A stretch of 64,000 nucleotides of DNA, taken from positions 140,906 to 204,905 of the forward strand of contig JBAZYN010000002.1 of the NCBI GenBank assembly GCA_041659325.1, read 5' to 3'. The position numbers and the translations under genes are program-made. The DNA comes from Candidatus Shapirobacteria bacterium. Its GTDB lineage: Bacteria > Patescibacteriota > Microgenomatia > UBA12405. Positions 2,038-34,893 of this stretch are shown here, piece by piece. Below the pieces are notes generated by a model. The model was given only the letters and a program-made list of their open reading frames with translations. It was not told the origin of the DNA and ran no database searches. Numbering within the stretch: the first letter of the stretch is position 1; each line of letters begins with the position of its first letter.

Positions 2038-2979
2038 TTGGTGATGAGTCAGCACGCGATTCCACAACAGATATCATCCTACGAATTTAAATTGGTAGGA
2101 GAAATGACACTGAAACAGTTTGCCAAGGCGGCCGCCGGAGTAATTTTGGCACTATTGATAAACAGCACCAAGCTGATATTTTTTGTGAAATGGCCACTGA
2201 TCGCGATAACAGCAGGAGGAGGATTGGCACTGGCCTTTGTTCCCTACCAGGACAGGCCTCTGGAAACATGGATTGGGGCTTTTTTAAAATCAATATATGC
2301 GCCAACGATTTTTCTTTATAAAAAAAGGGCTAATCAGAATTGGCTTGATATTGACATGGTAAAAGCCAAAGAGGAAGAACGGGAAGCGGCCGAAGCCAGT
2401 CAAGCGCCTTTGGCGATGAAAAGCCAGGATAAGGTGAGGGAGTTTATCCAATCACTGCCTTCGGTTAAAAAGGAAACGATAGACCAGGGCAATCAAGGAC
2501 AGGAGCTTGGGGCGGTGGCGGACAAGGTGGCGATGGGAAAGACAATGGAGGCTTCGAAAGTAGCGTCGGTTGGGCAGGGTAGTGGCGAGACAGCAATCAG
2601 TGAAGCATCCGAAAGAGAGGGCTGGAAAGAGGCGGCGGCCAAACTTGATTTGAAAACAGAAAAACTCAAGGCTACCGGCCAGGCGGTTTTTGGAGCAATA
2701 CCAATGCCCGACATCCCGGAGCTACCTAATTTAATCGTGGGGATGGTAACGGACAAGGAAGGAAAAATAGTGGAGGGAGCAATCGTGGAGATATTGGATT
2801 CGCAGGGAAATCCGGCGAGAGTACTAAAAACAAATCCGTTGGGACAGTTTAAATCGTCAACACAGTTAACCAGCGGCAAATATTTGATAACAACCGAAAA
2901 GGACAATTATGATTTTGACAGGATTTCACTTGATTTAACGGGACAATTAGTTCAGCCAATAAAAATATTGGCTAAATAA
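2038..2979 (+). CDS. PrgI/VirB3-like T4SS membrane protein with C-terminal carboxypeptidase-regulatory-like beta domain
   Basis: Two N-terminal TM helices (AAAGVILALLINSTKLIFF, IAITAGGGLALAFVPY), as in PrgI/VirB3. It lies immediately upstream of VirB4, which is the conserved order. The C-terminal segment IVGMVTDKEGKIVEGAIVEILDSQGNPARVLKTNPLGQF looks like a CarD-like beta-sandwich. Confidence 0.45.
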   Translation: MVMSQHAIPQQISSYEFKLVGEMTLKQFAKAAAGVILALLINSTKLIFFVKWPLIAITAGGGLALAFVPYQDRPLETWIGAFLKSIYAPTIFLYKKRANQNWLDIDMVKAKEEEREAAEASQAPLAMKSQDKVREFIQSLPSVKKETIDQGNQGQELGAVADKVAMGKTMEASKVASVGQGSGETAISEASEREGWKEAAAKLDLKTEKLKATGQAVFGAIPMPDIPELPNLIVGMVTDKEGKIVEGAIVEILDSQGNPARVLKTNPLGQFKSSTQLTSGKYLITTEKDNYDFDRISLDLTGQLVQPIKILAK

Positions 2980-3010
2980 AGTTTTGAAACTAAGGTATTA
3001 TTAAAATAAT

Positions 3011-3721
3011 ATGCCGGTCGACCCATTAAAGATTGCGATTAAAGGAACAACTCAAGATCATCTGCCGATTGAGGATGTGATTGATGGGATTGTTCTTTTG
3101 AAGGACGGTTCGTGTGCCATGGTGATGCAACTGTCCTCGGTTAATTTTGATCTTTTGTCAGAAAGGGAGCAGTCGGCCCTGGTGTTTGCCTATGGGGGGA
3201 TTTTAAATTCATTGAATTTTCCGATTCAAATCGTAATCCAGACATCCACAAAAGATGTGACCTCGTATCTCAATAACCTAAAGGAGGCGGAGGGGAAACA
3301 GGTCAACACACTACTTCGGGAGCGAATTAAACAGTATCGGAAGTTTATAGAAGAGACAGTAAGAAAGAATGATGTGTTGTCAAAATCATTTTATGCGGTG
3401 GTTCCCTTTTCGATAATAGAGCTTGGGATTAAGTCAGCCTCGAAACAGATGGTGGGTAGCTTGCCTTTCATGAAACAACAAAGCGGTAGCTCCGGATTGC
3501 CGTTTACCAAAGAATATATTTTGGAAAAAGCAAAAGCGAGCCTGGAACCAAAGAGAGACCATTTGATAAGACTGTTCTCGCGGTTGGGACTGGAAATAAA
3601 AGTGTTGAATACAAAAGAATTAATCGAATTGTATTATAGGCTTTACAATGAAGAAACGGCCGCAAACCAAAAGATTCAGACGCTGAGTTACGGTACGCCG
3701 GTGGTTAATGCAAAAATATGA
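3011..3721 (+). CDS. VirB4 N-terminal-domain-like protein (short paralog of the VirB4 entry domain)
   Basis: No TM helix. The motif IEDVIDGIVLLKDGSCAMVMQLSSVNFDLLSEREQ parallels the DGLVSTKDIIAPGSLEV motif at the N-terminus of the downstream VirB4. Its stop overlaps the start of the next gene (ATGA). Confidence 0.4.
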   Translation: MPVDPLKIAIKGTTQDHLPIEDVIDGIVLLKDGSCAMVMQLSSVNFDLLSEREQSALVFAYGGILNSLNFPIQIVIQTSTKDVTSYLNNLKEAEGKQVNTLLRERIKQYRKFIEETVRKNDVLSKSFYAVVPFSIIELGIKSASKQMVGSLPFMKQQSGSSGLPFTKEYILEKAKASLEPKRDHLIRLFSRLGLEIKVLNTKELIELYYRLYNEETAANQKIQTLSYGTPVVNAKI

Positions 3722-6231
3722 TCAATTTTTTTAAAAAACCAGAAAAGAAGACTGAGGTGGCTCCGATTGCACCAACCGCCACGGAGAAGCAACAACCCGG
3801 ACAGAGGCAGTTTGTGGACGGATTGGTGTCGACGAAGGATATTATTGCGCCTGGATCGTTGGAAGTTGATTTTGAACATATAAGGATTGATGGTAAATAC
3901 TACAGGACATTGTTTATTACCGGATACCCGAGATTTGTTGGAATTAACTGGCTGTCGCCTTTGATTAATTTCGACGCGTCTCTGAATGTGTCGATGTTTA
4001 TTTACCCAACCGATGGAAAAGAGATTTTGGATGACTTAAGGCGAAAAATTGCGGAAATGGAGGCAGAAATTAACACAGATATCCAAAGAGGCCGGGTCGT
4101 AGACCCGTCCACACAGGCCAAGCTTGAGGATGCCCTAAATCTTCAGGCCGATCTGGTGAAGGGAGAAGAGAGATTTTTTCAGTTTGGACTATATGTGACA
4201 ATCTCAGCTACCTCAAAGGAAGAAATTAACAGGATTAATAAAAATCTTGAGGCGGCATTGGGAGCGCTGATGATAATCAGCAAAAAAGCTACTTTGCAAA
4301 TGGAAGAGGGTTTTATGAGCACACTTCCCCTTTGTTCTGACAAGCTGAATATTACCCGAAACATGGATACAACTTCTCTGGCAACAACTTTTCCGTTTGT
4401 CTCGTCTGATCTGTCTGACGACAAGGGAATAATGTATGGGATTAATGAGCATAACGGATCGTTGGTGATTTTTGACCGGTTTTCGATGCAAAACTATAAT
4501 TCGGTGGTTTTTGCCTCAGCCGGAGCAGGAAAATCATATTTGATTAAACTTGAGGCGATCCGGTCACTGATGTTGGGGACAGAGATTATCGTAATCGATC
4601 CGGAAAATGAATATAGGGATTTATGCGAAGCAGTGGGAGGGCAATATATTGCCTTTGGCTACGGAGAGGAATCCAAAATAAATCCTTTTGACCTGTCATT
4701 GGTGGTGGAAGAAGGAGAAAACGCGCTCAATTCTAAGATTTTGGCGCTTCATAAACTTTTTAAAATAATGATCGGGGCTATGGATCCGATCGAGGAGTCG
4801 ATTTTGGATAGGGCGGCAATGGATGCCTACAAAATGAAGGGAATCACGCCTGACATTGAAACCCAAACAAGGGAACCGCCACTGGTGGAAGATTTGTATA
4901 AATCGCTTATCGGGATGGAGGACAAGCAGGCTCAAAACCTGGCGGCAAGATTTGAAAAATACATCAAGGGATCTTTTGCGGGAATATTTAACCAAAAAAC
5001 GACGGTTAATTTGACCAATAAGTTTGTGGTTTTCGGAATAAGAAATTTGGAAGATGCTCTCCGGCCGGTAGCAATGCACATTATTCTTGACTATATCTGG
5101 ACGATAGTAAAAAAGACGCTAAAAAGAAGGATATTGATAGTGGATGAGGCGTGGTATCTCATGCAGTATGAGGATTCGGCGGCATTTTTGAGAGGAATTG
5201 TAAAGCGAGGGAGAAAATATTACATCGGAGTAACAACAATTACACAGGACGTTGACGATTTTCTGGCCACTCCTTACGGAAAAGAAATTGTAACTAATAG
5301 TGCCATTCAGATTCTTTTAAAACAGCACAGTGCGGCGATTGATCAGGTGGGCGATGTTTTTTATTTGTCGGAGGGGGAAAAACAGTTGCTGTTGACGGCC
5401 GATAAGGGCGAGGGAATATTTTTTGCCGGAAAAAATCATGTAGCGATCAGAGTAATAGCATCTGAGGATGAGCACCGGCTGATTACGTCAAACCCAGAAG
5501 AGATTCTGAAGATGAAAAACCAGGGGAAAAGTTTTGGACAAAGCCCGATACCTGAGCCAACGGTCGAGCCACCGGTGGCGCTGATTCCTACGACAGAAGC
5601 AAAGAAACCAGTAGAGGAAATAAAAAAACCTGAGATGGAAAGCAAGCCTCAGCAGGAAACTGCTGCCTTGGACAAAACTAAACTAGCACCGCAAATAGTA
5701 GCCATACCGAAAGAGAAGACTCCTGCGGAGGGAAAACCGGCAATGGGGACCATTTATCAGACGGTGGTGGAAACAAACAAACCAGATGAGCAGGAAGAAA
5801 TACTGAAAAAGAGACTGGCCGAAATGGCGGAACAGGAAAAAAATGAAATTAGCGAACACCGGAAAAAAATTGCCGAAGAAGAAAGGCAGAAAGCCGAGGC
5901 AGAAGCTAAAAGGATGGCAGAAACATCGTCTAGCTTGCCGAAATATCAGGACTTGTTTAAGTCATACACCCCGGCAAAAACGGCGGGGCAAACTAGCCCA
6001 CCACCAATAAAGACTGGGCCGCTTATAAAAAGTGAAACGGTTGGTAATAAACCATTGGTTTTGGAACCAAAAAGGCCTATTTTTTTAAACCAGGAAGAAC
6101 CAAAGATTCCCCAACCGCCACAACTTTCAAAAAAAACAAAACCGGTTTTTGAGGAGCCGAAGGAAGAGGTTAAGGCCGCCACCGATGACGGGAAAACAAA
6201 AATGGATTATGATAAGTTGTTTAGCAACTGA
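3718..6231 (+). CDS. virB4: type IV secretion ATPase VirB4/TrbE/PrgJ family, with a ~240-aa low-complexity P/E/K-rich C-terminal tail
   Basis: Has the VirB4 N-domain signature (KYYRTLFITGYPRFVGINWL), Walker A VVFASAGAGKSYL and Walker B RRILIVDEAWYLM. The tail from ~5500 onward is PEPTVEPP.../EEILKKRLAEMAEQEKNE... low-complexity sequence. Confidence 0.85.
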   Translation: MINFFKKPEKKTEVAPIAPTATEKQQPGQRQFVDGLVSTKDIIAPGSLEVDFEHIRIDGKYYRTLFITGYPRFVGINWLSPLINFDASLNVSMFIYPTDGKEILDDLRRKIAEMEAEINTDIQRGRVVDPSTQAKLEDALNLQADLVKGEERFFQFGLYVTISATSKEEINRINKNLEAALGALMIISKKATLQMEEGFMSTLPLCSDKLNITRNMDTTSLATTFPFVSSDLSDDKGIMYGINEHNGSLVIFDRFSMQNYNSVVFASAGAGKSYLIKLEAIRSLMLGTEIIVIDPENEYRDLCEAVGGQYIAFGYGEESKINPFDLSLVVEEGENALNSKILALHKLFKIMIGAMDPIEESILDRAAMDAYKMKGITPDIETQTREPPLVEDLYKSLIGMEDKQAQNLAARFEKYIKGSFAGIFNQKTTVNLTNKFVVFGIRNLEDALRPVAMHIILDYIWTIVKKTLKRRILIVDEAWYLMQYEDSAAFLRGIVKRGRKYYIGVTTITQDVDDFLATPYGKEIVTNSAIQILLKQHSAAIDQVGDVFYLSEGEKQLLLTADKGEGIFFAGKNHVAIRVIASEDEHRLITSNPEEILKMKNQGKSFGQSPIPEPTVEPPVALIPTTEAKKPVEEIKKPEMESKPQQETAALDKTKLAPQIVAIPKEKTPAEGKPAMGTIYQTVVETNKPDEQEEILKKRLAEMAEQEKNEISEHRKKIAEEERQKAEAEAKRMAETSSSLPKYQDLFKSYTPAKTAGQTSPPPIKTGPLIKSETVGNKPLVLEPKRPIFLNQEEPKIPQPPQLSKKTKPVFEEPKEEVKAATDDGKTKMDYDKLFSN

Positions 6232-6254
6232 TCCGGCTGAAATTGCTATAATCT

Positions 6255-9200
6255 TTGGTGATGGAGAGAAGAAAATTCGGACAGACGACGGCCAGATTCA
6301 GAACAATAAGCGACGTAATTGACGGGCTTCGACTGATTTTGGGGAGCAAAGACAGGAACCTTGAGGGTGATCCGGAGTTAATAAGAGCGATAGAAGCGGT
6401 CGGAATTAAAATTAACGCTGAAAAGCCCGGGCCGATTGAGGATATTGTAGAGAGGCTAGAACACCTGATGGCAACAGTCGAGGAGGAGGTTTTAAGTCGG
6501 CGAATTGAAGAAGCCTTTTCAACTGCCGAACAAGATCTCCGCAACGCAAGGATGCCAGCGGCGGAAATGAGAGCGCTACTAGAGGAATATGACAGACACC
6601 TTCAGGCGGGTTTGACACCTGACGAAGCAGCAAGGAGGGTTGAAAGGGAGAGTGGTAGAAAAATTACGGCACTTTTACAACGACGATACGAAATTCACCA
6701 GGAAAATGTAGCCAGTGGGGCGAAAGAAGGTCTGATTGAAAAAATCGTGACTGATGGGAGACTGGAATTGGAGATAGAGTTGGAGGCGGCCGGAGTGGAT
6801 AAAGATGCGGCGGAAGGAATTGCTGAGAAGATAGTTAAAAAAACTGTTTTAAATAAGGTACTTTCTGATGACATTCCTAAAATTGCAGAACAAGCGTTAG
6901 GTGTGGTGCCCCAAGGAGACATAAGAGACTATTCCAGAGAGATTGTGGTACAAAAATTTAAGGATATTACCGCCAAAATAGAAGTTGGTCCAAGAATCGA
7001 GAAAATAACAATAGATTTGGTAGATCAAATAATACAAGTCAAACCCAACGTAACTGCGGAGGAAGAGAAGGGGCTAAGAGAGGCGGTTGGAAAAGAGGTT
7101 ACGGAACAGGTCATGGGTGGTAACAGATTGGGGGAAGTTTCGGTGGATGCGGCAGAAACAGATAGAGGCGGCGTAAAGGGAACGCCAAAATTGTCTGAAC
7201 TAATTATTGATAATCTTGATTTACCGCCATCAAAGGTTGGCCTTGTCGAAAAAGCGGTCAGTGTCGCCAGTGTAGCGGCAATGGAGGAAGTGAATTATGG
7301 CCGCGCGGCAGAGTCTGTGGTTGAAGCGTTGGCTCAAATACCGGCGGTGCGGGACACGGTGAAAGCAAGAGCGGCTGAAATCACAAAAGTGGTGAAGGAA
7401 GAAATTCAAAAATCAGTAGCTGACGGTAATTTTGAAACAGTGGCGGGTAAGGTTGCGGAGAAAATCGATCCTGATTCCAGGTCTGGAGTAGCAATCGGGA
7501 TGGCGGTAGAGGAGGAGGTGGCGAGGGAATTGCAAAGATGGAGTCCTGGAAAAGTTGAGGCGATAACTAGAGTGTTTGTTGAAATGGGGCCAAAGGCAGA
7601 GGCAAAGATGACAGAGATAGAGGCAGCAGTGGTAGAAGAAAATGCTGCGAGAAAAGCAGATCCCCGGACGGTATTTTCGCGGATACAAAAAAGGGTTGGC
7701 GCTATATTGGAGATCCCCGAAAGCGATGCTCCGATAGTATCGGCGATGGCGAGGGCGGAGGAAAGAAGCAGACAGTGGGATAAGGCTAAGGCGGATCAGG
7801 TCGCCGACAGGCTAGTGACGGTATTGAAAACAGACAAGACTATTGCGGCCAAATTATCTCCAAGAGAAGAATCATTTAAATCGATGATAAGGCCGAAAAT
7901 GGAGGCGGCTGTTATTGAAGGTCTGCCCCTTGAAGAGAGTACAACCAAAAAACCACTAGCCAGAAACCTTACTGATAGAGTGGTAGTCCTGCTTGGGATA
8001 CCTGCGGAAAAAATACCGATGGTTAGGATGGCAGTAAAGAAGGCCGGAAAGGAAGTTGATTGGCTGATAATGTCTGACAGAGAAAATATAAAAATAATCA
8101 GACAGGAAGAGATCAGAAATCAAATAGAACTAGGAATAGTTCGAGCAAATAGGGGTGTTGTGCTGACGACTAACCAAATGAATGCCGTACACGAGTTTTC
8201 CGGATTTGTGGCTCGATTTCGGGGAGCAGAATCCGGCATAGAGCCTTATAAGGATGAGGCGGTAGCTTTTGCAGAAGGACGGGATTTACGCCCGGGGGTA
8301 ATTAATAACGCGTGGGGTGATTTAGCCAATATTACAAAAATCGTCCGGATGTCACCGAGTCAATTTAAAAAATTCAGTGATCAATATTATCGGTTGAAGG
8401 ATGGACTTGGAGGGCTAAAAGTGCCTTTTGAGTCTCCGGCGATAAGATCGCTTGACGGGGTAATGAGGTTTATAAAAGATAACCCTAAAGTCCAACATCT
8501 GTTGAACTTTGCCCAAAAATTTACCGGACTCTCAAACTCGATTGGCAGTTTTACCAACGGATTGGTTAAAAAGATTGGTTTGGAAAAGGCCGGAATATCG
8601 GTGATCGAAAAGATTGGCGGGCAGGCAATGGGAGAGTTTGTCCGACAATCACTGGTGGTGATAGGACAAAACGGAATGAGACAGGGATTGACGATGATCC
8701 TGAGGGGGATTATCGGCGGAGGGGTGAAAGCGGGATCGGTGGTTGGGGGCGGGACGGCCGGAGCACTGGCGGGGGCAGTGGCGGCTTTTCAGGCAGTGCC
8801 ACTGGTGGGGCAAATAATTTTGATAGGCGCCCTAGCGGTGGTGGGAATTAAAAAAGTTATAAAGCCGATTCTTGATAGATTTTTTAAACCAATTGCGGGA
8901 ATAATTGGTAATTTGGGATTGAATTTGGGGATTAAAAAGTTTTTTCAAGACAAATTTGGAAAAGGTTTTGGGTGGCTATTGGGAGCCGGAGCGACACTGG
9001 GGGTGATGATAGCAGCCGTTCCTATGGCCTTTGCCGGGTGGTGGGCGGCAACAATGGCTCTAATGTTTAGTAAGGTGATTGTGGCGGTCTTTATTGGCAT
9101 AATTACATTTTCTCTTATCACCTCGATTAATGTGTCGGCTCAGGTAACCAGGGGGCCGCCTTCGGGAGTAGAAGTGTATGATTATGGTAACGAGCCTTGG

Positions 9201-9689
9201 GAGATATTTGTTCCGAATTTACCGTTGCCCACAAGAGATCCCAGTATTGTTATTCCCGAAAGTTGCCCGGGGATATGGCCGACAGATTCCGGAGTGGTAA
9301 CCCAGGGACCACTGGGACAGTGGTCTCACCGAGGAACGCAGGCAATTGATATAAGTATTATATCCGGATCCCCAATCTATGCGACACATGACGGATTGGC
9401 TTTTCCGGGGGGCGGAAAAGGAAGTGGTTATGGATTTTATGTTGACGTGATGGGGGTATGTAATGGGGTCTCAATTATAACCAGATATGCGCATATGCCC
9501 CGTTTAATATTTACGGAGCAAAAATTAGTTAAACAAGGAGAAATAATCGGTTACGTTGATAACACGGGCAACTCGACAGGCCCCCATCTTCACTATGAGC
9601 TGACCGGCGGACAAATTAACGACTGGCTTCCGAAACCAGTACCTCTGAAATGCAGTCATTATTATGAATGTTTGGTTTCTATCCCCTAA
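6255..9689 (+). CDS. giant T4SS-associated cell-wall hydrolase: N-terminal helical region, Gly-rich multi-TM segment, C-terminal M23 (LytM) peptidase
   Basis: The C-terminus carries M23 motifs HRGTQAIDI ... GNSTGPHLHYEL. The TM block is GIIGGGVKAGSVVGGGTAGALAGAV.../LLGAGATLGVMIAAVPMAFAGWW. Its position after VirB4 parallels PrgK/TcpG/VirB1-type hydrolases. Confidence 0.75.
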   Translation: MVMERRKFGQTTARFRTISDVIDGLRLILGSKDRNLEGDPELIRAIEAVGIKINAEKPGPIEDIVERLEHLMATVEEEVLSRRIEEAFSTAEQDLRNARMPAAEMRALLEEYDRHLQAGLTPDEAARRVERESGRKITALLQRRYEIHQENVASGAKEGLIEKIVTDGRLELEIELEAAGVDKDAAEGIAEKIVKKTVLNKVLSDDIPKIAEQALGVVPQGDIRDYSREIVVQKFKDITAKIEVGPRIEKITIDLVDQIIQVKPNVTAEEEKGLREAVGKEVTEQVMGGNRLGEVSVDAAETDRGGVKGTPKLSELIIDNLDLPPSKVGLVEKAVSVASVAAMEEVNYGRAAESVVEALAQIPAVRDTVKARAAEITKVVKEEIQKSVADGNFETVAGKVAEKIDPDSRSGVAIGMAVEEEVARELQRWSPGKVEAITRVFVEMGPKAEAKMTEIEAAVVEENAARKADPRTVFSRIQKRVGAILEIPESDAPIVSAMARAEERSRQWDKAKADQVADRLVTVLKTDKTIAAKLSPREESFKSMIRPKMEAAVIEGLPLEESTTKKPLARNLTDRVVVLLGIPAEKIPMVRMAVKKAGKEVDWLIMSDRENIKIIRQEEIRNQIELGIVRANRGVVLTTNQMNAVHEFSGFVARFRGAESGIEPYKDEAVAFAEGRDLRPGVINNAWGDLANITKIVRMSPSQFKKFSDQYYRLKDGLGGLKVPFESPAIRSLDGVMRFIKDNPKVQHLLNFAQKFTGLSNSIGSFTNGLVKKIGLEKAGISVIEKIGGQAMGEFVRQSLVVIGQNGMRQGLTMILRGIIGGGVKAGSVVGGGTAGALAGAVAAFQAVPLVGQIILIGALAVVGIKKVIKPILDRFFKPIAGIIGNLGLNLGIKKFFQDKFGKGFGWLLGAGATLGVMIAAVPMAFAGWWAATMALMFSKVIVAVFIGIITFSLITSINVSAQVTRGPPSGVEVYDYGNEPWEIFVPNLPLPTRDPSIVIPESCPGIWPTDSGVVTQGPLGQWSHRGTQAIDISIISGSPIYATHDGLAFPGGGKGSGYGFYVDVMGVCNGVSIITRYAHMPRLIFTEQKLVKQGEIIGYVDNTGNSTGPHLHYELTGGQINDWLPKPVPLKCSHYYECLVSIP

Positions 9690-9692
9690 CCT

Positions 9693-10709
9693 ATGAATAA
9701 AAAGATGCAAAATATTTTCTTAATTGTTGTGACAACGATATTGGTTTTGGGAATGATTAGAATTGCGTTTTTCAGGGAGAAGTCTACAATAACCAAACAA
9801 CCAGAAACCGGCAAAATATCGCTTGGGACAACGGAACCAATAAACGACCCGAGCACCGCGCGTCCAAAGTCGGTCTCCTGGGGAGTGACAAAACTTGATT
9901 TAGAGAAAAAGATGGCGGTTTACAAAATCAGCAGCCAACAGGTTGATGATGCCATGATCGAAAAAACAGCAAGGTCTTTTGGGTTTGAGGGGAAAGCAGA
10001 GGTAGACCAGGAAAGTTTTTTGGTTTACAACAATACGGAAAATAACACCACTCTGGATATCAATAAAACAAGCCGAACCATTAAATATTCAAAAAATTTA
10101 TTGGTGTATCCGATGATTAAAGTAGTCCGGACTATACCGGTTGAAGAGATCGGAGAAAGATTAAAGGATTTGGTAACAAAGCGTTTTGACCTTAAACCAG
10201 AAATAAAGGTGACGGTTGAAAGAACTGAGTACGAAACATTGGCGGGGCCGAGATTTGTGGCTTCTTCAAGAGAAAAGGCTGATATTGTAAAAATTAATGG
10301 CAACTACCAAGTTGGCGGGTATCCCGTGTATTCTTTTGCGGGATTTCCGATCATTGCTAGATTTTCTACTGATGGAAACTTGCTCAATCTTTCGGTTGAT
10401 TTGGCTTTTGATGAAACTAGCAAACAGGATTCGTTAACGGTCAAAACGGAAGAAGAACTAAAGAGGATTCCTCCCGAAAACTACAAAATAGTTGATATTG
10501 ACGGAGAAAAAGATTACGATATGTCTTCATATGAGGAGGCAATTGGGGGAGTTAACATTACGGGAGGCTATCTTGGATATATCCTTACACCTGAGAGTGA
10601 TTATTTGTTGCCCTATGTTTTTTTTAAGGGAAACAGCAAGCTGTTGTCGGGTCCGGTCGTGGTTACGATGGCGGTTCCGGCACTAAAAGAGGAAGGGCTT
10701 TATAAATGA
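9693..10709 (+). CDS. hypothetical secreted/membrane-anchored protein (T4SS locus member)
   Basis: N-terminal TM/signal (IFLIVVTTILVLGMIRIAFF). Tightly packed, 3 nt after the M23 gene. Confidence 0.45.
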   Translation: MNKKMQNIFLIVVTTILVLGMIRIAFFREKSTITKQPETGKISLGTTEPINDPSTARPKSVSWGVTKLDLEKKMAVYKISSQQVDDAMIEKTARSFGFEGKAEVDQESFLVYNNTENNTTLDINKTSRTIKYSKNLLVYPMIKVVRTIPVEEIGERLKDLVTKRFDLKPEIKVTVERTEYETLAGPRFVASSREKADIVKINGNYQVGGYPVYSFAGFPIIARFSTDGNLLNLSVDLAFDETSKQDSLTVKTEEELKRIPPENYKIVDIDGEKDYDMSSYEEAIGGVNITGGYLGYILTPESDYLLPYVFFKGNSKLLSGPVVVTMAVPALKEEGLYK

Positions 10710-11083
10710 AACTAAAAGACCTGGTTGGAGATTATCTTTTGATTACGATTCTTGCTGTAATTGCTTTGTTAATGCTGCTAACCCGGATAATATATACAGC
10801 CGGCAATAAAAGGCAAAACGACAGTCGCGAACTTTTGAAAACTACCGTTCCCTCGTTGGCACCGACACCAACTAGCAGCAATATCGATTTTGAAAAAAGT
10901 TATCCTTTGTGGAAATTGCTGCCCTATACCGGAGATGGTTTTGTGGTGGAAAAATATACAGAACCTTTGGTATTAAAAGTATCCCTTGAAAAAGGTGAAA
11001 AAAGTGCCGGTATCGAAAAAGTAGAGAAATGGTTGGAAGAAAACGAGATAAGTCCGGAAACGCATGTAATTGTGTGGGAATAA
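10706..11083 (+). CDS. small membrane protein, hypothetical
   Basis: ATGA overlap with the upstream gene. Single TM helix (LLITILAVIALLMLL). Confidence 0.4.
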   Translation: MKLKDLVGDYLLITILAVIALLMLLTRIIYTAGNKRQNDSRELLKTTVPSLAPTPTSSNIDFEKSYPLWKLLPYTGDGFVVEKYTEPLVLKVSLEKGEKSAGIEKVEKWLEENEISPETHVIVWE

Positions 11084-12221: not shown

Positions 12222-12469
12222 GCCTTATATTAACAGGAAAAGGAAGACTTAAGGAGGTGAAGTTTGAAGCGGTAAATAAAATACAAAGATTAGTTTACAA
12301 AATAGTAGTAGTTATTAGTAGAGAGGGTGGGTAAGTGAAGAAACAGTCTGAGGCAAGCTAGGAAAAAGGTTTATAAGTTTGAAATTTACGGACGATGTTG
12401 ATAAAAACGGGGGTGGCGTCTTATAAGGGCGGTTTAGGTTTGGGTAAACTTCGGGGGAAAAGGGGAAGA

Positions 12470-12600
12470 AAAGTTGTGGATAATAATGTGGATAAGTGGG
12501 GGCAAAATGTGGAAAACCAGAGACGGACTAAAAAGCGGACTTGATTTGGTTGATAACCGAACGGGTTTGTGGATTAGTGGATAAGTCGGTGTGGATTTTG
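12470..12600. promoter_or_regulatory. DnaA-box cluster between dnaA and dnaN (oriC part II)
   Basis: TTGTGGATAA at 12475-12484, TGTGGATAAG at 12487-12496 and TGTGGAAAA at 12508-12516. Degenerate copies GTGGATTAGTGGATAAG / TGTGGATTT lie at 12567-12598. TGTGGATAA is the reverse complement of the TTATCCACA consensus. Confidence 0.5.
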
Positions 12601-13883
12601 TCCCGGGCATGCATAATACTGGTGTGATCCCGACCACCTAAAAGCCGGCCAACTTCTTCGAGAGGCAGGTTGATTTCGGTGATTAAAAGGAAAGCGGTTA
12701 AGTGGCGGGCAGTGACCAGGTCTTTTTTGCGACTGGAACCACAAAGGTCGCCGGTTTTTATGCCGAAATGTTTGGCACAAACAGAGATAATATGCCGGGG
12801 AGTGATGTCATTTCTGGTGAGGGAGGAGGAGTTGTGGGATTGAGGTGAAAAATAATTTTGAACAAATTCAAGATCGATTTCGTCTATTTTTTGGGAGATA
12901 GATTGAATAATGATTTCCTGAAGCTTACCTTCGATATCTCTAATGTTTGAGGTGATGCTGTCGGCCATAAAATTAACGGCATCGGAATCGATTTTTATCC
13001 CCTTTTCTTCAGCTTTTTGTTTGATGATGGCGGCACGCATTTCGAAATCGGGCAGTTGGATGTCGACGGTCAGACCGCCCATAAAACGGGAGACAAGTCG
13101 GTCTTCGATTTTGTCAATGTCGGCGGGTTTACGGTCGGAGGTTAATACGACTTGTTTTCCGGCCATATGGAGGGCGTTGAAAGTGTGAAAAAATTCTTCC
13201 TGGATATATTCTTTTCCGGCCAAAAACTGAATGTCGTCGACCAGAATACAATCAAGGTTTCGATATTTGTCTTTGAACTTGTTCATGTCTTTGGACTTGA
13301 GGGCGCTTATTAGCTCATTGCCAAAAGTTTCGGCGGGAAAATATTTGACTTTTAAGTCGGGGTCTTTTTTTAAGAGCTCGTGGCCTATAGCCTGCATTAA
13401 ATGAGTCTTGCCTACCCCGACTCCACCCCAAATAAAAAACGGATTGTAGGCCAGACCCGGATTTTTTATGATCCCCTGGGCGGCGGCGTAGGCAAAATTA
13501 TTGCTGTTGCCGACAACCAGATTTTCAAAGGTATATTTCGGATGAAGATTGGAGAGAGGGGAACGGTTTTTTTGAGAACCGTAGTTGAACAAGGGAGAGT
13601 TGGCGAGGACGTCGCTATTTAAAATTGGTTCCTGAAGAATAAAATCAAGAGAGTTTTTGGTTTTTGTTTGATTATCCAGGGCGCTTTTGAAGAGATCGTA
13701 GTATCTTTTTTTGTTGATATCAACAAGATAGGTGTTGGGGCAAGCGATGGTAGCCTGATTTTCTTTTAGGGCAATGAGCTGAGTTTTGGCAACAAAGGTT
13801 TGGTAGACGGCCGGAGCCAGGACGACCTTTAGTTCTTCTCTTGCATTTTTCCAAATTCGCTCAATTTCGTGAAGAGGCGGCAT
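12528..13883 (-). CDS. dnaA: chromosomal replication initiator protein DnaA
   Basis: AAA+ Walker A NPFFIWGGVGVGKTHLMQAIG and Walker B LDCILVDDIQF. The C-terminus has a DnaA helix-turn-helix (GRDHTSIMHARDKI). Confidence 0.9.
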   Translation of the reverse strand: MPPLHEIERIWKNAREELKVVLAPAVYQTFVAKTQLIALKENQATIACPNTYLVDINKKRYYDLFKSALDNQTKTKNSLDFILQEPILNSDVLANSPLFNYGSQKNRSPLSNLHPKYTFENLVVGNSNNFAYAAAQGIIKNPGLAYNPFFIWGGVGVGKTHLMQAIGHELLKKDPDLKVKYFPAETFGNELISALKSKDMNKFKDKYRNLDCILVDDIQFLAGKEYIQEEFFHTFNALHMAGKQVVLTSDRKPADIDKIEDRLVSRFMGGLTVDIQLPDFEMRAAIIKQKAEEKGIKIDSDAVNFMADSITSNIRDIEGKLQEIIIQSISQKIDEIDLEFVQNYFSPQSHNSSSLTRNDITPRHIISVCAKHFGIKTGDLCGSSRKKDLVTARHLTAFLLITEINLPLEEVGRLLGGRDHTSIMHARDKIHTDLSTNPQTRSVINQIKSAF

Positions 13884-14100
13884 TAATTTTTTGATAGTTA
13901 AAAAATAACGACATCATCGATAAAATATAAACATTACACCAGGGGGATGGTTGACTTATCCACATGATGATAAAGGAGTTTTCCACAATTAACAATGTGT
14001 CAAATCAACTTCAAATTTAATTATTGTAATCAGTAATCTGTAATCAGTAATTGGTAATTGATGGTCGGTAATTGGTGATAAATATGTTAAGATAGGATTT
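13884..14100. promoter_or_regulatory. oriC part I: AT-rich unwinding region, DnaA boxes and GTAATNN array upstream of dnaA, divergent from rpmH
   Basis: Perfect TTATCCACA at 13966-13974 and TTTTCCACA at 13979-13987. AT-rich runs at 13884-13940 and 14009-14035. The position (dnaA divergent from rpmH-rnpA-yidC) is the canonical origin location. Confidence 0.55.
14036..14090. repeat. GTAATNN 7-nt-period tandem array (G1) in the origin region
   Basis: gtaatca gtaatct gtaatca gtaattg gtaattg atggtcg gtaattg gtgataa. Confidence 0.8.
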
Positions 14101-14232
14101 ATGATAGAAGGAAAACAAAAAGTAAAAAGCACAAAAAGAAAACAGGGGTTTTTAAGAAAGATGTCGACTCAGGACGGCAGAAATGTAATTAAAAGAAGAA
14201 GATCAGCGGGAAGAAAGAGATTGGCAAAATAG
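14101..14232 (+). CDS. rpmH: 50S ribosomal protein L34
   Basis: Not in the ORF track (43 aa). It reads MIEGKQKVKSTKRKQGFLRKMSTQDGRNVIKRRRSAGRKRLAK, matching the L34 pattern K/R-rich ... GFR.RM.T..GR.VL.RRR.KGR..L. Confidence 0.8.
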   Translation: MIEGKQKVKSTKRKQGFLRKMSTQDGRNVIKRRRSAGRKRLAK

Positions 14233-14245
14233 AGTAAAATAGTTT

Positions 14246-27406: not shown

Positions 27407-27468
27407 AGTGTCTATATTATACAGAAACAAAATAGGGGATAGAAATTGAATAGTGTTATAATTTTGGC

Positions 27469-29710: not shown

Positions 29711-31330
29711 TTATTTTGCGACATTTCTGATTGCATCCGAAGCCGCCTGAGCGCTTCCTGGGCCGAGAGTTCCTTCAATTAATCCGCCGACAATTCCTCT
29801 TGAAGCACCGGTCTTAGGATCTGCAATACTAGTGGCAGCTTTATTACCTATAAAGGATTTTCCGAATCTTGCAATTGGGTTTTTGCTTAAGTTTGTGCTT
29901 TCACCAATAGCCACTCCCCACGGAGATGGTTTAATCATAAAAATATACTGAGGGATCATATCGGGGAGCTTGGAAAGAAGCATAAGGCTAGCAAGACCAA
30001 CAGCGACGGGTAAAAGACCACCGGAGGGGATGGTGGCAAGATTTACCATGAATCCCACTAGTCCACCTGATTCTAAAAGTTGAGGCTTCCAGATACCGTA
30101 TTCGTGTCTGGTATTGTCAATGATTATGTTGGCTAAAACTAAAAACAATAGGGAAATAGGGAAAACGGAAATGTTGGCGACTAGTTGGAGTAACCAGGTG
30201 GAAAATCCTGTTTTCACATTGGGAAAAGCACCTATGCCGATGACAAAAGGAGCGGTAATAATTTGGAAAAGAATGGTGACGTAACATTTGACTAAGCCGA
30301 AATAAAATTTGACTTGCCAGATCATGACGGCAATGACGATAACCAAAAGCATGAAAACAGCTCCGATGGTTCCTCCTGTTAAGGCTCCTGCCGGTCCGGC
30401 TAATCCACCAACTATGGCTCCGATTACGCCACCCAGGGCGGCCAGAGAGGCCTTGGGGGCCATGCGGAGCATGAGGTCGCCGACAGTGGCCAATCCCGCT
30501 TCGGAAAAAAGCTTGAAAGTCCAACCTTCCTTGAGACCCAGGGCTTTTAGAATACCGCCAAAAAAATTTTGGTCAATTAGATTGTCGTCTAGATTAGTTT
30601 TTCCTGTAGCCTGATAAAGAACAGCGAGACCGAAAGACTGGAGGAAGATTGAAAGGTCGATTATTAGGCCGGCAATGGCATAGGAGAAAGTAACCAGGAT
30701 GAGAGTAATTATTACCTGGGGAATGGCGCTTTGAATGGTAATTACGGCTTGGGGGCTGATTTTGACCCGGAGCATGATCATAATGCCGATAATCACAAAT
30801 AGGAATGAGGAAATTAAATAGACAACATTTCGGAAACCTCGCCAAAGTGGGAGAATGGGCTGAAGACCATTGAAACCGATACCGACTCCCTGAGCATAGG
30901 CCGGTTTTCCCAAGAGATTATTTTTGAGCTGAGCAATATATTGAATTCCGGATGCCTGGGGGATATAGAGGGAAGCAGTCATGCGGTTTATGGAACCGAC
31001 CATGCCACCCGGGATATAACTGGTTTCCTCGCCTTTGAAAATGCCTTCCGGGATTTTATCGACCATACCTTCGATTACTCCGGTTGAAATACTGCCGAGG
31101 CTTTCCATGGTCCAACGTTCATTGTTGCCGCCGGCATCACGAGCATCCTGTTTTTTTTCGAGATAGGAGACTTCTTGGGCTTTGATTTTGGTAGTTAAAA
31201 TGGAGCTGCCAATGAGAAGAAAGGCGATTATAAGGAATTTTAGGACGGGAGAAATTTTGGGGATTATCCGATGCTCGCGACGGTTTAGCCAATTAAGGGT
31301 GGCTTTGATGTTCATAAAATATTTTAGCAT
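29711..31330 (-). CDS. VirB6/TrbL-like polytopic T4SS membrane protein
   Basis: At least 8 TM helices including Gly-rich AALGGVIGAIVGGLAGPAGALTGGTIGAV, and an N-terminal periplasmic region. Sits downstream of the pilin array and the secreted protein. Confidence 0.5.
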   Translation of the reverse strand: MLKYFMNIKATLNWLNRREHRIIPKISPVLKFLIIAFLLIGSSILTTKIKAQEVSYLEKKQDARDAGGNNERWTMESLGSISTGVIEGMVDKIPEGIFKGEETSYIPGGMVGSINRMTASLYIPQASGIQYIAQLKNNLLGKPAYAQGVGIGFNGLQPILPLWRGFRNVVYLISSFLFVIIGIMIMLRVKISPQAVITIQSAIPQVIITLILVTFSYAIAGLIIDLSIFLQSFGLAVLYQATGKTNLDDNLIDQNFFGGILKALGLKEGWTFKLFSEAGLATVGDLMLRMAPKASLAALGGVIGAIVGGLAGPAGALTGGTIGAVFMLLVIVIAVMIWQVKFYFGLVKCYVTILFQIITAPFVIGIGAFPNVKTGFSTWLLQLVANISVFPISLLFLVLANIIIDNTRHEYGIWKPQLLESGGLVGFMVNLATIPSGGLLPVAVGLASLMLLSKLPDMIPQYIFMIKPSPWGVAIGESTNLSKNPIARFGKSFIGNKAATSIADPKTGASRGIVGGLIEGTLGPGSAQAASDAIRNVAK

Positions 31331-33588: not shown

Positions 33589-33975
33589 TTAGCCGGGGAT
33601 GAGGAACTTGGTGATGGCGACTCCGGTAAATTTTTCAATAAGACTGAGAATGAGCCAGGAACCAATGACACCAACCAGACCGAGGATGGCCATGGTAAGA
33701 GTGGAGGAAGCGGAGGCGATTTTTTTGGAATCGCCGCCGGAGAAAAGATAATTGTAGCCGCCGGAGATAAACATGTAGAAAAAAGCCAGACCGGCGAAGA
33801 AAACGATTACCTGGAGGACATTGTAGAAGAGACACTCTAGCCCTTGAATAGTGGCGACATCAGTGAAGTCTCCGCTACCAACACAGCGGGCGTCTTTGGT
33901 GGCCCATTCCTGAGTAGTTTGGGCGAGAATAGTGGAAGGATGGAATAAAAATAACATGAGAAACGCGATTAACAT
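33589..33975 (-). CDS. VirB2/TrbC-like T4SS pilin paralog 1
   Basis: Signal/TM1, then the loop GGDSKK, then TM2 (TLTMAILGLVGVIGSWLIL). The two-helix architecture is shared by all six tandem paralogs. Confidence 0.6.
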   Translation of the reverse strand: MLIAFLMLFLFHPSTILAQTTQEWATKDARCVGSGDFTDVATIQGLECLFYNVLQVIVFFAGLAFFYMFISGGYNYLFSGGDSKKIASASSTLTMAILGLVGVIGSWLILSLIEKFTGVAITKFLIPG

Positions 33976-34066
33976 ATGTGATTATAACATTTTGGTGGGG
34001 GGCAGGGAAAACAAAAACCTCCCCCGATTTTGTCGGGAGAGGTTTTGAATTTCAACTAAGAGCAAA

Positions 34067-34450: not shown

Positions 34451-34519
34451 ATGTTTTTGTTCTATTTTTACATTAATTGATAATTTATTTAGAATATTGT
34501 ATCAGTTTGCAAATTAAAA

Positions 34520-34888: not shown

Positions 34889-34893
34889 ATGAT

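What the first reader, a model, noticed from the sequence alone, without database searches (positions are those of the whole stretch)
2038..11083. T4SS-like locus I: PrgI/VirB3-like, duplicated VirB4 N-domain, VirB4 ATPase with a 240-aa low-complexity tail, and a 1144-aa TM-anchored M23 peptidoglycan hydrolase; no relaxase or coupling protein in the window
Gene order and motifs resemble Gram-positive-type conjugation cores (PrgI-PrgJ-PrgK). The M23 protein has a very long N-terminal helical region of ~900 aa before its TM block, unusually large for a T4SS hydrolase. No VirD4/TraG coupling protein or relaxase is visible in either T4SS locus. This suggests a non-conjugative role such as pilus or adhesion, DNA uptake, or contact with a host cell, as proposed for CPR T4SSs. 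The two T4SS loci straddle the replication origin.
Basis: partly seen in the sequence, partly recalled or inferred. Interest (0 to 1): 0.6.

Follow-up and report, generated by a model that had tools for sequence, protein, structure and literature searches.

The report
Chromosomal Patescibacteria type IV secretion operon
This is the membrane and cell-wall half of the chromosomal type IV secretion machine that most ultra-small CPR/Patescibacteria carry next to their replication origin; the system was described in 2023-2025, so this is a correct but ordinary find with a few new details.

Summary
Window 2038-11083 (+) is a tightly packed six-gene operon: PrgI/VirB3-like protein, a 236-aa TrsD-like protein, a VirB4 ATPase (CD1110 family, 386.7 bits) with a ~250-aa tail, a 1144-aa membrane protein ending in an intact M23 peptidase, and two small membrane-anchored proteins.

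One point is wrong. The 236-aa ORF is not a duplicated VirB4 N-domain. It is the detached N-terminal piece of a split VirB4. It matches model positions 2-117, the ATPase ORF matches 184-733, and the two are one ORF in two related genomes.

The source is a Candidatus Shapirobacteria (Microgenomatia) MAG. The same gene order, flanked by dnaN-dnaA, recurs in about 48 of 82 related loci. VirB4 is more conserved there than DnaA. No relaxase, coupling protein or integrase was found in the 64 kb.

This matches the published Patescibacteria-clade T4SS (Wang 2023; Quinonero-Coronel 2025), which is essential for epibiotic growth in Saccharibacteria.

New details:
- The hydrolase domain is swapped among relatives (M23, CHAP, C39-like, amidase).
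- The VirB4 tail ends in a conserved YDxLF motif.
- Loci I and II are contiguous in relatives.

Verdict: a new member of a known kind, of modest interest.

The parts
2038..2979 (+). VirB3/PrgI-like membrane protein. It has two TM segments at about residues 29-68, an A/E/K-rich linker and a C-terminal CarboxypepD_reg-like beta-sandwich at residues 233-293.
   Evidence: PF12666 scores 25.7 bits (cutoff 27) at residues 8-89, and PF13620 gives 8.8e-07. Of 71 homologues, 71 hit PrgI and 66 hit CarboxypepD_reg. A homologue is present in 80 of 82 related loci, directly upstream of TrsD.
3011..3721 (+). TrsD-family protein: the separately encoded N-terminal segment of a split VirB4.
   Evidence: It matches positions 2-117 of NF045971 (CD1110 VirB4), 103-232 of NF045975 and 13-135 of NF041427 TrsD/TraD. 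In L074 and L080 it is fused in frame to VirB4, aligning at 41-45% identity to residues 6-233 of the 787-822-aa ORFs. hhalign gives 98.4% probability to the 216-aa ORF upstream of traE on B. cereus plasmid p30102_3. Relatives carry the precomputed Pfam label PF26593 TraC-like.
3718..5460 (+). VirB4 ATPase body: the rest of the N-domain plus the P-loop ATPase. The Walker A-like GAGKS and Walker B-like ILIVDEAW motifs are present. The start codon overlaps the TrsD stop (ATGA).
   Evidence: NF045971 scores 386.7 bits (cutoff 325) at model positions 184-733; PF19044 gives 6.9e-31; PDB 4ag5 gives 6.5e-49 over residues 229-590. The junction sequence is shown. Homologues at 62-88% identity occur in 80 GTDB species.
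5446..6231 (+). VirB4 C-terminal tail: an E/K/P-rich, probably disordered linker that ends in the conserved motif MDYDKLFSN. A second recurring motif, KIPQPPQL, lies about 35 residues upstream.
   Evidence: The composition is E14 K14 P11 %. The motif [YFW][DEN]x[LIMV]F is found in 114 of 120 close homologues against 1.1% of shuffled tails, at a median of 10 residues from the C-terminus. It occurs only in the Shapirobacteria clade.
6255..9689 (+). PrgK-like membrane-anchored peptidoglycan hydrolase. It has an approximately 830-aa cytoplasmic region (residues ~500-820 modelled all-helical; residues 1-500 not modelled), about three TM segments at residues 836-964 and an extracellular M23 metallopeptidase at residues ~1005-1144 with its catalytic residues intact.
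9693..10709 (+). Membrane-anchored (TM at residues 4-29) extracytoplasmic protein with tandem alpha+beta domains of PepSY/YycI/YpeB type. It is a candidate wall-side accessory or hydrolase partner. Similarity to VirB8 is weak.
10706..11083 (+). Small membrane-anchored protein (TM at residues 3-34) of unknown fold, the last gene of the operon.
   Evidence: No Pfam or NCBIfam hit. Homologues sit at the same position in about 35 related loci (cluster 7).
33589..35939 (-). Locus II: an array of five divergent VirB2-like T4SS pilin genes belonging to the same system.
   Evidence: PF18895 T4SS_pilin hits are 5.7e-06, 5.1e-06, 6.2e-07, 4.7e-05 and 8e-08. One also hits NF045849, the Mbov_0395 pilin-like family. 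Each has two hydrophobic segments. In L049, L060, L063, L068, L071, L075 and L081 the pilin array lies directly upstream of PrgI-TrsD-VirB4.
29711..31330 (-). Polytopic membrane protein with about 7-8 TM segments, a positional candidate for the missing VirB6-like channel subunit.
   Evidence: Hydropathy is. Homologues lie between the pilin array and PrgI in 14 related loci. There is no Pfam TrbL/VirB6 hit in 15 homologues and no PDB sequence hit, so the assignment rests on topology and position only.
31335..33566 (-). 743-aa protein with an N-terminal hydrophobic segment, lying between the pilin array and the polytopic protein. Function unknown.
   Evidence: No Pfam or NCBIfam hit. A protein of about 740 aa occupies the same position in L071 and three other loci (cluster 32), but no sequence similarity to it was detected.
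12222..14245 (.). dnaA, with DnaA-box clusters on both sides: the probable oriC that separates locus I from locus II.
   Evidence: All three perfect TTATCCACA boxes in the window are at 12475, 12487 and 13956, with one-mismatch boxes beside them. The detrended cumulative G-C has its minimum at 14046. dnaN and dnaA are read.

Best explanation
[quoted passage not shown] That system derives from the monoderm MPF-FATA conjugation machinery, pGO1/CD1110-like branch. Here it sits in a Candidatus Shapirobacteria genome.

Shown:
- A six-gene, translationally coupled operon encodes a VirB3/PrgI-like anchor, a two-chain VirB4 ATPase (TrsD piece plus ATPase body, Walker motifs intact), a PrgK-type hydrolase and two N-terminally anchored extracytoplasmic proteins.
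- The hydrolase has its active-looking M23 domain on the outer side of about three TM segments and about 830 residues on the cytoplasmic side.

Inferred:
- The VirB4 hexamer, docked on VirB3, powers extraction and polymerisation of the five VirB2-like pilins encoded in locus II, and/or substrate passage through a channel that includes the polytopic 539-aa protein.
- The M23 domain cuts peptide cross-links locally so that the pilus or channel can cross the wall.
- The PepSY/YycI-like 338-aa protein and the 125-aa protein act on the wall side as assembly or hydrolase-control factors.

Inferred from the Saccharibacteria homologue, which is essential for growth on the host: the machine serves contact with, or macromolecule exchange with, a host cell. 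It does not serve self-transfer of a mobile element.
For: The split VirB4 rests on colinear model coordinates, fused single ORFs in L074 and L080, no self-similarity, and a conserved 4-nt overlap both in relatives and on a Bacillus plasmid.

Vertical, chromosomal inheritance is supported in four ways:
- The order exo | PrgI-TrsD-VirB4-hydrolase-o338-o125 | dnaN-dnaA recurs across GTDB species, with TrsD in 82 of 82 loci, PrgI in 80 of 82, and dnaA/dnaN within 10 kb in 48-49 of 82.
- VirB4 has a median identity of 66%, against 54% for DnaA and 48% for DnaN, in the same loci.
- The nearest plasmid VirB4s are only 29-38% identical.
- No integrase was found, and the GC content is uniform.

No relaxase or T4CP family was hit in the window, and no second VirB4-like ATPase was found in the window or within 10 kb either side in 80 loci.

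Loci I and II are one system, because they are contiguous in seven relatives.

Literature: PMC12102498 describes the same repertoire (TrsD, PrgI, VirB2 arrays, dnaA/dnaN proximity in Microgenomatia, few relaxases). PMC10633639 shows the homologous cluster is essential for epibiotic growth of S. epibionticum and lacks a recognisable coupling protein and relaxase. PMC11323569 gives the PrgK layout (intracellular domain, TM, LytM/SLT/CHAP).
Against: Only 64 kb of a contig of at least 335 kb was visible. A VirD4-like protein or relaxase may lie elsewhere, since the survey found VirD4 homologues in 2,918 of 3,035 genomes, mostly far from virB4 (PMC12102498).

No functional data exist for any Microgenomatia. 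The essentiality and non-conjugative reading are extrapolated from Saccharimonadia.

The VirB6 assignment has no sequence or fold support. The VirB8 role is unfilled, because o338 looks PepSY/YycI-like and its model is of low confidence.

The operon structure is inferred from spacing only. The promoter and terminator scans were no better than shuffles.
Confidence: 0.8

Rival explanations
1. It is the transfer module of a conventional integrated conjugative element or a decayed ICE. Its relaxase, coupling protein and oriT would lie outside the window, and it moves DNA between CPR cells.
For: VirB4 belongs to the CD1110 conjugal-transfer family. The gene order VirB3-TrsD-VirB4-hydrolase is the same as on a Bacillus plasmid. 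VirD4-like genes are common elsewhere in Patescibacteria genomes, and a few genomes do carry relaxases (PMC12102498).
Against: No relaxase, T4CP or integrase was found, and there is no tRNA-adjacent boundary in the 64 kb. The position next to dnaN-dnaA and the 5'-3' exonuclease gene is conserved across many species. VirB4 is more conserved than DnaA and co-diverges with it. The composition does not differ from the flanks. In the published tree, 99% of these VirB4s have their closest relative within their own class.
Confidence: 0.07
2. It is a DNA-uptake or nucleic-acid import machine, working like the Helicobacter ComB system or the archaeal Ced system, that feeds a nucleotide-auxotrophic cell.
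For: VirB4 gives weak hits to the CedB and CedD DNA-import ATPase models (56.5 and 20.9 bits). There is no relaxase or T4CP locally. CPR cells lack nucleotide synthesis. In the ABY1 class the T4SS lies next to comF, recG and radA (PMC12102498). A 2026 preprint links Patescibacteria VirB4 to host RNA acquisition and reports possible T4SS pili at the host interface (10.64898/2026.06.21.733656).
Against: The CedB score is far below its cutoff of 700. In S. epibionticum the T4SS is essential while comEC-dependent transformation is not (PMC12857230, PMC10633639), so the essential role is not classical competence. No competence genes lie next to this locus.
Confidence: 0.12
3. The locus is a degenerating remnant. 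On this view the split VirB4 is a frameshift pseudogene, the low-complexity tail is read-through junk and the system no longer works.
For: VirB4 is in two ORFs and has a long compositionally biased tail. Two related loci (L056, L076) show additional breaks inside VirB4.
Against: The TrsD/VirB4 split with an ATGA overlap is present in 80 of 82 loci and on a Bacillus plasmid. The Walker motifs and M23 catalytic residues are intact. VirB4 is 62-88% identical across species. The tail ends in a motif conserved in 114 of 120 homologues.
Confidence: 0.01

Closest known systems
Patescibacteria-clade T4SS (Wang et al. 2023, S. epibionticum SEML1_0006-0019; Quinonero-Coronel et al. 2025 survey)
   Same: It shares the chromosomal position near dnaA/dnaN, VirB4 of MPF-FATA ancestry, an adjacent TrsD homologue, a PrgI/VirB3 homologue, an array of divergent VirB2-like pilins, peptidase-type hydrolases downstream of virB4, and the absence of a nearby relaxase or coupling protein.
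   Different: This is a Microgenomatia (Shapirobacteria) version. The system is divided into two loci on either side of oriC. VirB4 carries a clade-specific tail of about 250 aa with a conserved terminal motif. The hydrolase has an approximately 830-aa cytoplasmic region. VirB6 and VirB8 are not recognisable by sequence, as the survey noted for this class.
pGO1/pSK41-type MPF-FATA conjugation module (TrsC-TrsD-TrsE-...-TrsG), represented here by B. cereus plasmid p30102_3
   Same: The order is the same: a VirB3-like protein, then TrsD, then VirB4 with a 4-nt overlap, then a peptidoglycan hydrolase. TrsD homology is supported at 98.4% hhalign probability.
   Different: VirB4 is only about 30% identical. 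The plasmid systems have a coupling protein and relaxase and no VirB2-like pilins. Their hydrolases are small, or of SLT+CHAP or NlpC/P60 type. They are mobile rather than chromosomally fixed.
PrgK of pCF10 (DELTA-class T4SS cell-wall hydrolase)
   Different: PrgK has about 253 intracellular residues, one TM, a degenerate LytM domain, and an active muramidase and a CHAP domain. The window protein has about 830 intracellular residues, about three TM segments, and a single M23 domain with all catalytic residues. Its relatives swap that domain for CHAP, C39-like, amidase or NlpC/P60 domains.
VirB4 of Thermoanaerobacter pseudethanolicus (PDB 4ag5)
   Same: The ATPase domain aligns over residues 229-590 at E = 6.5e-49.
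   Different: That protein has no detached N-terminal piece and no long C-terminal tail.

Membership tests
Patescibacteria-clade T4SS (MPF-FATA-derived) | VirB4 ATPase of the monoderm (CD1110/MPF-FATA) type | tested here: met
   NF045971 scores 386.7 bits against a cutoff of 325, and PF19044 gives 6.9e-31.
Patescibacteria-clade T4SS (MPF-FATA-derived) | VirB4 falls inside the monophyletic Patescibacteria clade | tested here: inconclusive
   No tree was built. The listed top database homologues (62-100% identical) that carry a source name are named Shapirobacteria or Patescibacteria apart from one labelled Methanoperedens, and many contigs carry other taxon labels that look like mislabels. The best plasmid VirB4s are only 29-38% identical.
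Patescibacteria-clade T4SS (MPF-FATA-derived) | TrsD homologue encoded next to virB4 | tested here: met
   NF041427 TrsD gives 9.4e-08, directly upstream with an ATGA overlap. It is present in 82 of 82 related loci.
Patescibacteria-clade T4SS (MPF-FATA-derived) | VirB3/PrgI homologue | tested here: met
   PF12666 scores 25.7 bits, just under the cutoff of 27, for this protein. All 71 aligned homologues hit it, with a best E-value of 4.5e-10.
Patescibacteria-clade T4SS (MPF-FATA-derived) | Array of divergent VirB2-like pilins | tested here: met
   Five PF18895 hits lie at 33589-35939 (-), four of them at or above the 26.6-bit cutoff. The array is contiguous with virB4 in seven relatives.
Patescibacteria-clade T4SS (MPF-FATA-derived) | Chromosomal location near dnaA/dnaN, with no relaxase nearby | tested here: met
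   dnaN and dnaA lie 14 nt to 2.8 kb downstream. No relaxase family was hit in the 64 kb.
Conjugative T4SS / integrative conjugative element | Relaxase (any MOB family) | tested here: not met
   Pfam scans of the window's non-overlapping ORFs of 100 aa or more gave no relaxase family. The rest of the genome was not visible.
Conjugative T4SS / integrative conjugative element | Type IV coupling protein (VirD4/TcpA) | tested here: not met
   No T4CP family was hit in the window. A VirB4 HMM finds no second related ATPase in the window or in 80 related loci. Genome-wide absence is not testable here.
Conjugative T4SS / integrative conjugative element | Integrase or recombinase and element boundaries (att sites, tRNA target, compositional island) | tested here: not met
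   No integrase family was found. The only tRNAs are in the rRNA operon. GC content is 0.40-0.47, like the rest of the window. Synteny with housekeeping genes is conserved.
Conjugative T4SS / integrative conjugative element | oriT | not testable with these tools
   No relaxase is available to define a nic site, and no model exists for an oriT of this lineage.
PrgK/TraG-type membrane-anchored T4SS peptidoglycan hydrolases (VirB1 analogues of monoderms) | Intracellular N-terminus, membrane span, extracellular hydrolase domain(s), encoded in the T4SS operon | tested here: met
   Hydropathy shows TM segments at 836-964 and no N-terminal signal. M23 is at residues 1028-1117. The gene lies 24 nt after virB4.
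PrgK/TraG-type membrane-anchored T4SS peptidoglycan hydrolases (VirB1 analogues of monoderms) | Lytic transglycosylase or muramidase (SLT/VirB1) domain | tested here: not met
   Only M23 was detected in the window protein. None of the 50 proteins scanned (the window protein and 49 positional homologues) hit an SLT or lysozyme family at E <= 0.001. It works like a T4SS hydrolase but is not a VirB1/SLT homologue.
Peptidase M23 (active LytM-type endopeptidases) | Zn ligands His/Asp (HxxxD), a catalytic His, and the HxH motif | tested here: met
   The alignment to zoocin A puts H and D in register with a 3-residue insertion. YAH and HLHYE are conserved.
VirB8-like (NTF2-like) T4SS assembly proteins: the 338-aa ORF | N-terminal TM plus an NTF2-like extracytoplasmic domain | tested here: inconclusive
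VirB6/TrbL channel subunit: the 539-aa ORF in locus II | Polytopic membrane protein with five or more TM segments and sequence similarity to TrbL/VirB6 or PrgH | tested here: inconclusive
   About 7-8 hydrophobic segments are present and the position is conserved. There is no Pfam hit in 15 homologues and no PDB profile hit.

The most novel reading that the evidence does not exclude
In the Shapirobacteria clade, VirB4 has acquired a built-in adaptor: a disordered tail of about 250 aa ending in a conserved acidic-aromatic peptide (xYDxLFG). This resembles the C-terminal tail of the F-plasmid coupling protein TraD, which docks on TraM.

The tail would recruit a substrate, or a partner such as the approximately 830-aa cytoplasmic domain of the hydrolase. 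It would thereby take over the receptor function of the coupling protein that is missing from these loci.

The hydrolase with swappable catalytic heads would then be a scaffold that couples ATPase activity inside the cell to wall cutting outside.
Probability: 0.15. Interest if true: 0.6.

Novelty: new member of a known kind. Interest (0 to 1): 0.3.

Why it matters
CPR/Patescibacteria make up a large share of bacterial diversity and live attached to host cells. Their T4SS is the first such system shown to be essential for the survival of its owner, and its substrate is unknown.

This locus adds little to the general picture, which was published in 2023-2025. It does give concrete handles for the least understood class, Microgenomatia:
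- VirB4 here is a two-chain enzyme that is fused in some lineages.
- The protein after VirB4 is a PrgK-like hydrolase whose catalytic head is exchanged between species.
- A conserved terminal peptide on VirB4 could be used as bait to find partners or substrates.
- There are positional candidates for the VirB6 and VirB8 roles that the published survey could not find in this class.

Tried and rejected
1. Duplicated VirB4 N-domain: rejected. BLASTP between the two ORFs gives E = 0.28. The model coordinates are colinear and non-overlapping, and fused ORFs exist in relatives.

2. Word-indexed homologue search with the whole 1144-aa protein: it found only the protein itself. The exhaustive search with residues 1-832 found just 78 clusters. 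Conservation is confined to residues ~510/590-830, and residues 1-500 are nearly orphan.

3. Internal repeats in the long N-terminal region: none by self-BLAST.

5. o338 as VirB8: not supported beyond generic alpha+beta similarity.

6. u539 as VirB6: no Pfam or PDB profile support.

7. TrsD profile against PDB sequences: no hit.

8. Promoter and terminator scans: counts were no better than shuffles.

9. Pfam scan of 108 neighbouring gene families from related loci: only the top 25 of 107 families were displayed, all housekeeping. It could therefore not fully exclude rare relaxase or T4CP neighbours.

10. Exact look-up of the source contig failed for VirB4, so the rest of the genome could not be scanned.

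Full report
**1. What is in the sequence**

Six ORFs fill window 2038-11083 on the + strand with almost no spacing:
- 2038-2979 (313 aa)
- 3011-3721 (236 aa)
- 3718-6231 (837 aa)
- 6255-9689 (1144 aa)
- 9693-10709 (338 aa)
- 10706-11083 (125 aa)

Two junctions are ATGA stop/start overlaps (3718-3721, seen directly, and 10706-10709). One junction is a 3-nt gap. The block is bounded on the left by a divergently transcribed 5'-3' exonuclease gene (1000-1944, -). On the right it is bounded by convergent dnaN (11097-12221, -) followed by dnaA (12528-13883, -). I read this as one operon. That reading is inferred from spacing, because the consensus promoter and terminator scans were no better than shuffled sequence.

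**2. Identity of the parts**

The 837-aa protein is a VirB4 ATPase. NCBIfam 'VirB4-like conjugal transfer ATPase, CD1110 family' scores 386.7 bits (cutoff 325) over model positions 184-733. Pfam P-loop_TraG gives 6.9e-31. The solved VirB4 ATPase domain 4ag5 gives 6.5e-49 over residues 229-590. The Walker A-like (GAGKS) and Walker B-like (ILIVDEAW) motifs can be read in the translation.

The 313-aa protein has a PrgI/VirB3 domain at residues 8-89. It scores 25.7 bits, just under Pfam's 27. All 71 aligned homologues hit the family, the best at 4.5e-10, and 66 of 71 also carry the C-terminal CarboxypepD_reg-like beta-sandwich.

The 1144-aa protein ends in an M23 peptidase (5.8e-16). Alignment to zoocin A, LytM and others shows the metal-binding His and Asp (with a three-residue insertion between them), the YAH histidine and the HLH motif all present. 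This contrasts with the degenerate LytM domain of PrgK (PMC11323569).

Hydropathy gives no N-terminal signal, about 830 soluble residues, and then about three TM segments at 836-964. That places the M23 domain outside the membrane.

The 338- and 125-aa proteins each have one N-terminal TM segment and no family hit.

**3. The '236-aa duplicated N-domain' is a split gene**

The 236-aa ORF matches positions 2-117 of the CD1110 VirB4 model, 103-232 of the mycoplasma VirB4 model and 13-135 of the TrsD/TraD model. The ATPase ORF matches positions 184-733 and 292-893 of the same two VirB4 models. The two ORFs therefore cover successive parts of one protein. They are not similar to each other (BLASTP E = 0.28).

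In two related genomes (L074, an Amesbacteria MAG, and L080) there is a single ORF of 822 or 787 aa. Its first ~233 residues align to the 236-aa protein at 41-45% identity, and its remainder aligns to the ATPase ORF, colinearly.

The split, including the 4-nt overlap, is otherwise conserved in 80 of 82 related loci. It also exists on Bacillus cereus plasmid p30102_3. There a 216-aa ORF overlapping traE is homologous to this family (hhalign probability 98.4%, E = 8.7e-15). It is preceded by a weakly PrgI-like ORF and followed by a YddH endopeptidase.

This is the TrsC-TrsD-TrsE-hydrolase order of the pGO1-type monoderm conjugation systems. The published survey already lists TrsD as the most abundant accessory component in Patescibacteria (PMC12102498).

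**4. Source and conservation**

The VirB4 is 100% identical to a protein of a Candidatus Shapirobacteria MAG on a 335-kb contig. Thousands of homologues exist, and the top 120 are 62-83% identical.

A scan of one genome per GTDB species returned 80 loci. Among the 82 loci held (these 80 plus L001 and L002), TrsD is found in 82, PrgI in 80, and dnaN/dnaA within 10 kb in 48-49. The 5'-3' exonuclease lies upstream in about 40, and a large membrane protein directly follows VirB4 in nearly all loci long enough to show it.

Across the same loci VirB4 has a median identity of 66%, against 54% for DnaA and 48% for DnaN, and the identities are positively correlated. The nearest plasmid-borne VirB4s, from Firmicutes and Actinobacteria, are 29-38% identical.

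This is the signature of a vertically inherited, strongly constrained chromosomal system, not of a mobile element.

**5. Relaxase and coupling protein**

Pfam and NCBIfam scans of the window's non-overlapping ORFs of 100 aa or more found no relaxase, VirD4/TcpA-type ATPase, FtsK-like translocase or integrase; a few overlapping, probably spurious ORFs were not scanned. A VirB4 profile found no second related ATPase in the window or in the 80 loci.

The window-level claim therefore holds. It cannot be extended to the genome. The survey found VirD4 homologues in 2,918 of 3,035 Patescibacteria genomes, only 148 of them near virB4, and relaxases in only 103 genomes (PMC12102498).

**6. Locus II and the origin**

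Five VirB2-like pilin genes (PF18895) lie at 33589-35939 (-). Next to them are a 743-aa protein and a polytopic 539-aa protein with about 7-8 TM segments.

In seven more distant relatives, including a complete 615-kb chromosome (L068), the pilin array and the 539-aa homologue lie directly upstream of PrgI-TrsD-VirB4. The two loci are therefore one system that has been separated in this lineage.

The 539-aa protein is a positional and topological candidate for VirB6. It has no sequence support.

Between the loci lie dnaN, dnaA, rnpA and yidC. All three perfect DnaA boxes of the window flank dnaA, at 12475, 12487 and 13956. The detrended cumulative G-C curve has its minimum at 14046, in the dnaA-rnpA spacer.

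The origin claim is thus supported, and proximity of the T4SS to dnaA in Microgenomatia is already published. The skew does not change sign there (see section 9).

**7. The large hydrolase**

I scanned the window protein and 49 positional homologues from related loci (50 proteins). Of these, 22 carry M23, 11 CHAP, 6 a C39-like peptidase, 1 an amidase and 1 NlpC/P60. The catalytic head is therefore exchanged while the chassis is kept.

An exhaustive search with residues 1-832 found only 78 clusters in 1.84 billion representatives. The conserved part is the membrane-proximal helical module at residues ~510/590-830, which is modelled with high confidence but has no PDB fold match. The first 500 residues are nearly orphan.

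The protein is an extreme form of a known T4SS hydrolase design. It lacks the SLT/VirB1 domain, so it is a functional analogue of VirB1 and not a homologue.

**8. The two small proteins**

The 338-aa protein has only eight homologue clusters in the large database. The model built from that shallow alignment is weak overall (pLDDT 58) but reaches 72-86 for residues 70-180.

A role as wall-side partner or regulator of the adjacent hydrolase is an inference from the PepSY/YpeB analogy. The 125-aa protein is conserved in position in about 35 loci but is otherwise uncharacterised.

**9.

(a) The VirB4 tail is not merely low-complexity. In 114 of 120 close homologues it ends in [YFW][DEN]x[LIMV]F (here MDYDKLFSN), at a median of 10 residues from the C-terminus, against 1.1% of shuffled tails. 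A second motif, KIPQPPQL, recurs upstream. Both occur only in the Shapirobacteria clade. More distant Microgenomatia have VirB4 of 606-673 aa without them. This looks like a docking peptide on a flexible linker. The partner is unknown.

(b) The whole window has G 18137 against C 9816. Third-codon-position skews show that the + strand is G-rich whatever the gene orientation. The same one-signed skew on both sides of dnaA is seen in the close relatives, whereas more distant Microgenomatia show the classical sign flip at dnaA. Within the window the origin shows only as a change of slope. I have no explanation for the constant offset.

**10. Mechanism, comparison and verdict**

The most likely working model is as follows:
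- VirB3 anchors a two-chain VirB4 hexamer at the membrane.
- The ATPase drives assembly of a VirB2-type pilus and/or passage of a substrate through a channel that includes the polytopic locus II protein.
- The M23 head opens the wall locally.
- The small anchored proteins act on the wall side.

By analogy with S. epibionticum, the machine probably serves host contact or macromolecule exchange, not self-transfer. In that organism the homologous cluster is essential for growth on the host and comEC is not (PMC10633639, PMC12857230). The domain identities, the split VirB4, the synteny and the local absence of conjugation genes are shown here. The pilus, channel and host-interaction steps are inferred.

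All of this agrees with the published description of the Patescibacteria T4SS. The locus is a new member of a known kind.

Noticed in passing
window 1-64000; also L011-L042, L052, L076 compared with L043-L081: The window shows extreme one-signed strand asymmetry: G 18137 against C 9816, a GC skew of +0.30 over 64 kb. Third-codon positions show the + strand is G-rich regardless of gene orientation. There is no sign flip at dnaA, only a slope change with the detrended minimum at 14046. Close Shapirobacteria relatives show the same pattern, Amesbacteria-like loci show the opposite sign on both sides, and other Microgenomatia show the classical flip at dnaA. Possible causes are very unequal replichores or a non-replicative strand bias; I could not decide between them.
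   Followed up: partly
window 5446-6231 (VirB4 residues ~577-837): The VirB4 tail ends in a conserved short motif, [YFW][DEN]x[LIMV]F(G), here MDYDKLFSN. It is present in 114 of 120 close homologues and is restricted to the Shapirobacteria clade. A second motif, KIPQPPQL, lies about 35 residues upstream. It is probably a docking peptide.
   Followed up: partly
window 44338-49423: This is an rRNA region without a 16S gene. tRNA-Ile and tRNA-Ala (normally in the 16S-23S spacer) follow a cohesin-domain protein gene. Next come a full-length 23S (45077-47994), a LAGLIDADG homing-endonuclease ORF (48075-48659) and a 5S (49307-49423). This looks like an unlinked rRNA arrangement with an endonuclease between 23S and 5S.
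   Followed up: no
window 36073-40564: Directly beside the pilin array lies a cluster of a 7TM_transglut membrane protein, an ATPgrasp_ST protein fused to a Zn_protease-like domain, and two RimK-like ATP-grasp ligases. It may be a peptide or glutamate-ligation system. Whether it modifies pilins or wall components is unknown.
   Followed up: no
window 41837-44302 and 55652-63091: Several large secreted-looking proteins carry cohesin or dockerin type I domains (821, 761, 474 and 610 aa). A dockerin-domain protein was among the essential envelope proteins of S. epibionticum (PMC10633639).
   Followed up: no
window 25709-29700: A DUF6909 protein (618 aa, 1.3e-157) lies next to a 743-aa protein with no family hit and no homologue in the 80 related loci. 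Both sit at the edge of locus II.
   Followed up: no
L056:10031-12378, L076:2619-5403, L024:12382-16767: In two related loci VirB4 is broken into an extra piece, through either a frameshift or an assembly error. In L024 about 4.4 kb is inserted between virB4 and the hydrolase gene; the insert includes a 386-aa protein family seen on both strands in six loci, possibly an insertion sequence.
   Followed up: no
L005, L010, L011, L013, L018 and many others (record titles): Many contigs with a typical Shapirobacteria T4SS-dnaN-dnaA locus are titled 'uncultured Gammaproteobacteria', 'Methanoperedens', 'Bathyarchaeia', 'Clostridia' or 'Nevskiaceae' in the public records. These are probably mislabelled or mis-binned MAGs.
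   Followed up: no
L012 / L002:17430-22496: In the 949-kb Shapirobacteria contig the T4SS operon is followed not by dnaN-dnaA but by a protein of more than 4,400 aa with a protein-kinase domain. Origin proximity is therefore common but not universal within the clade.
   Followed up: no
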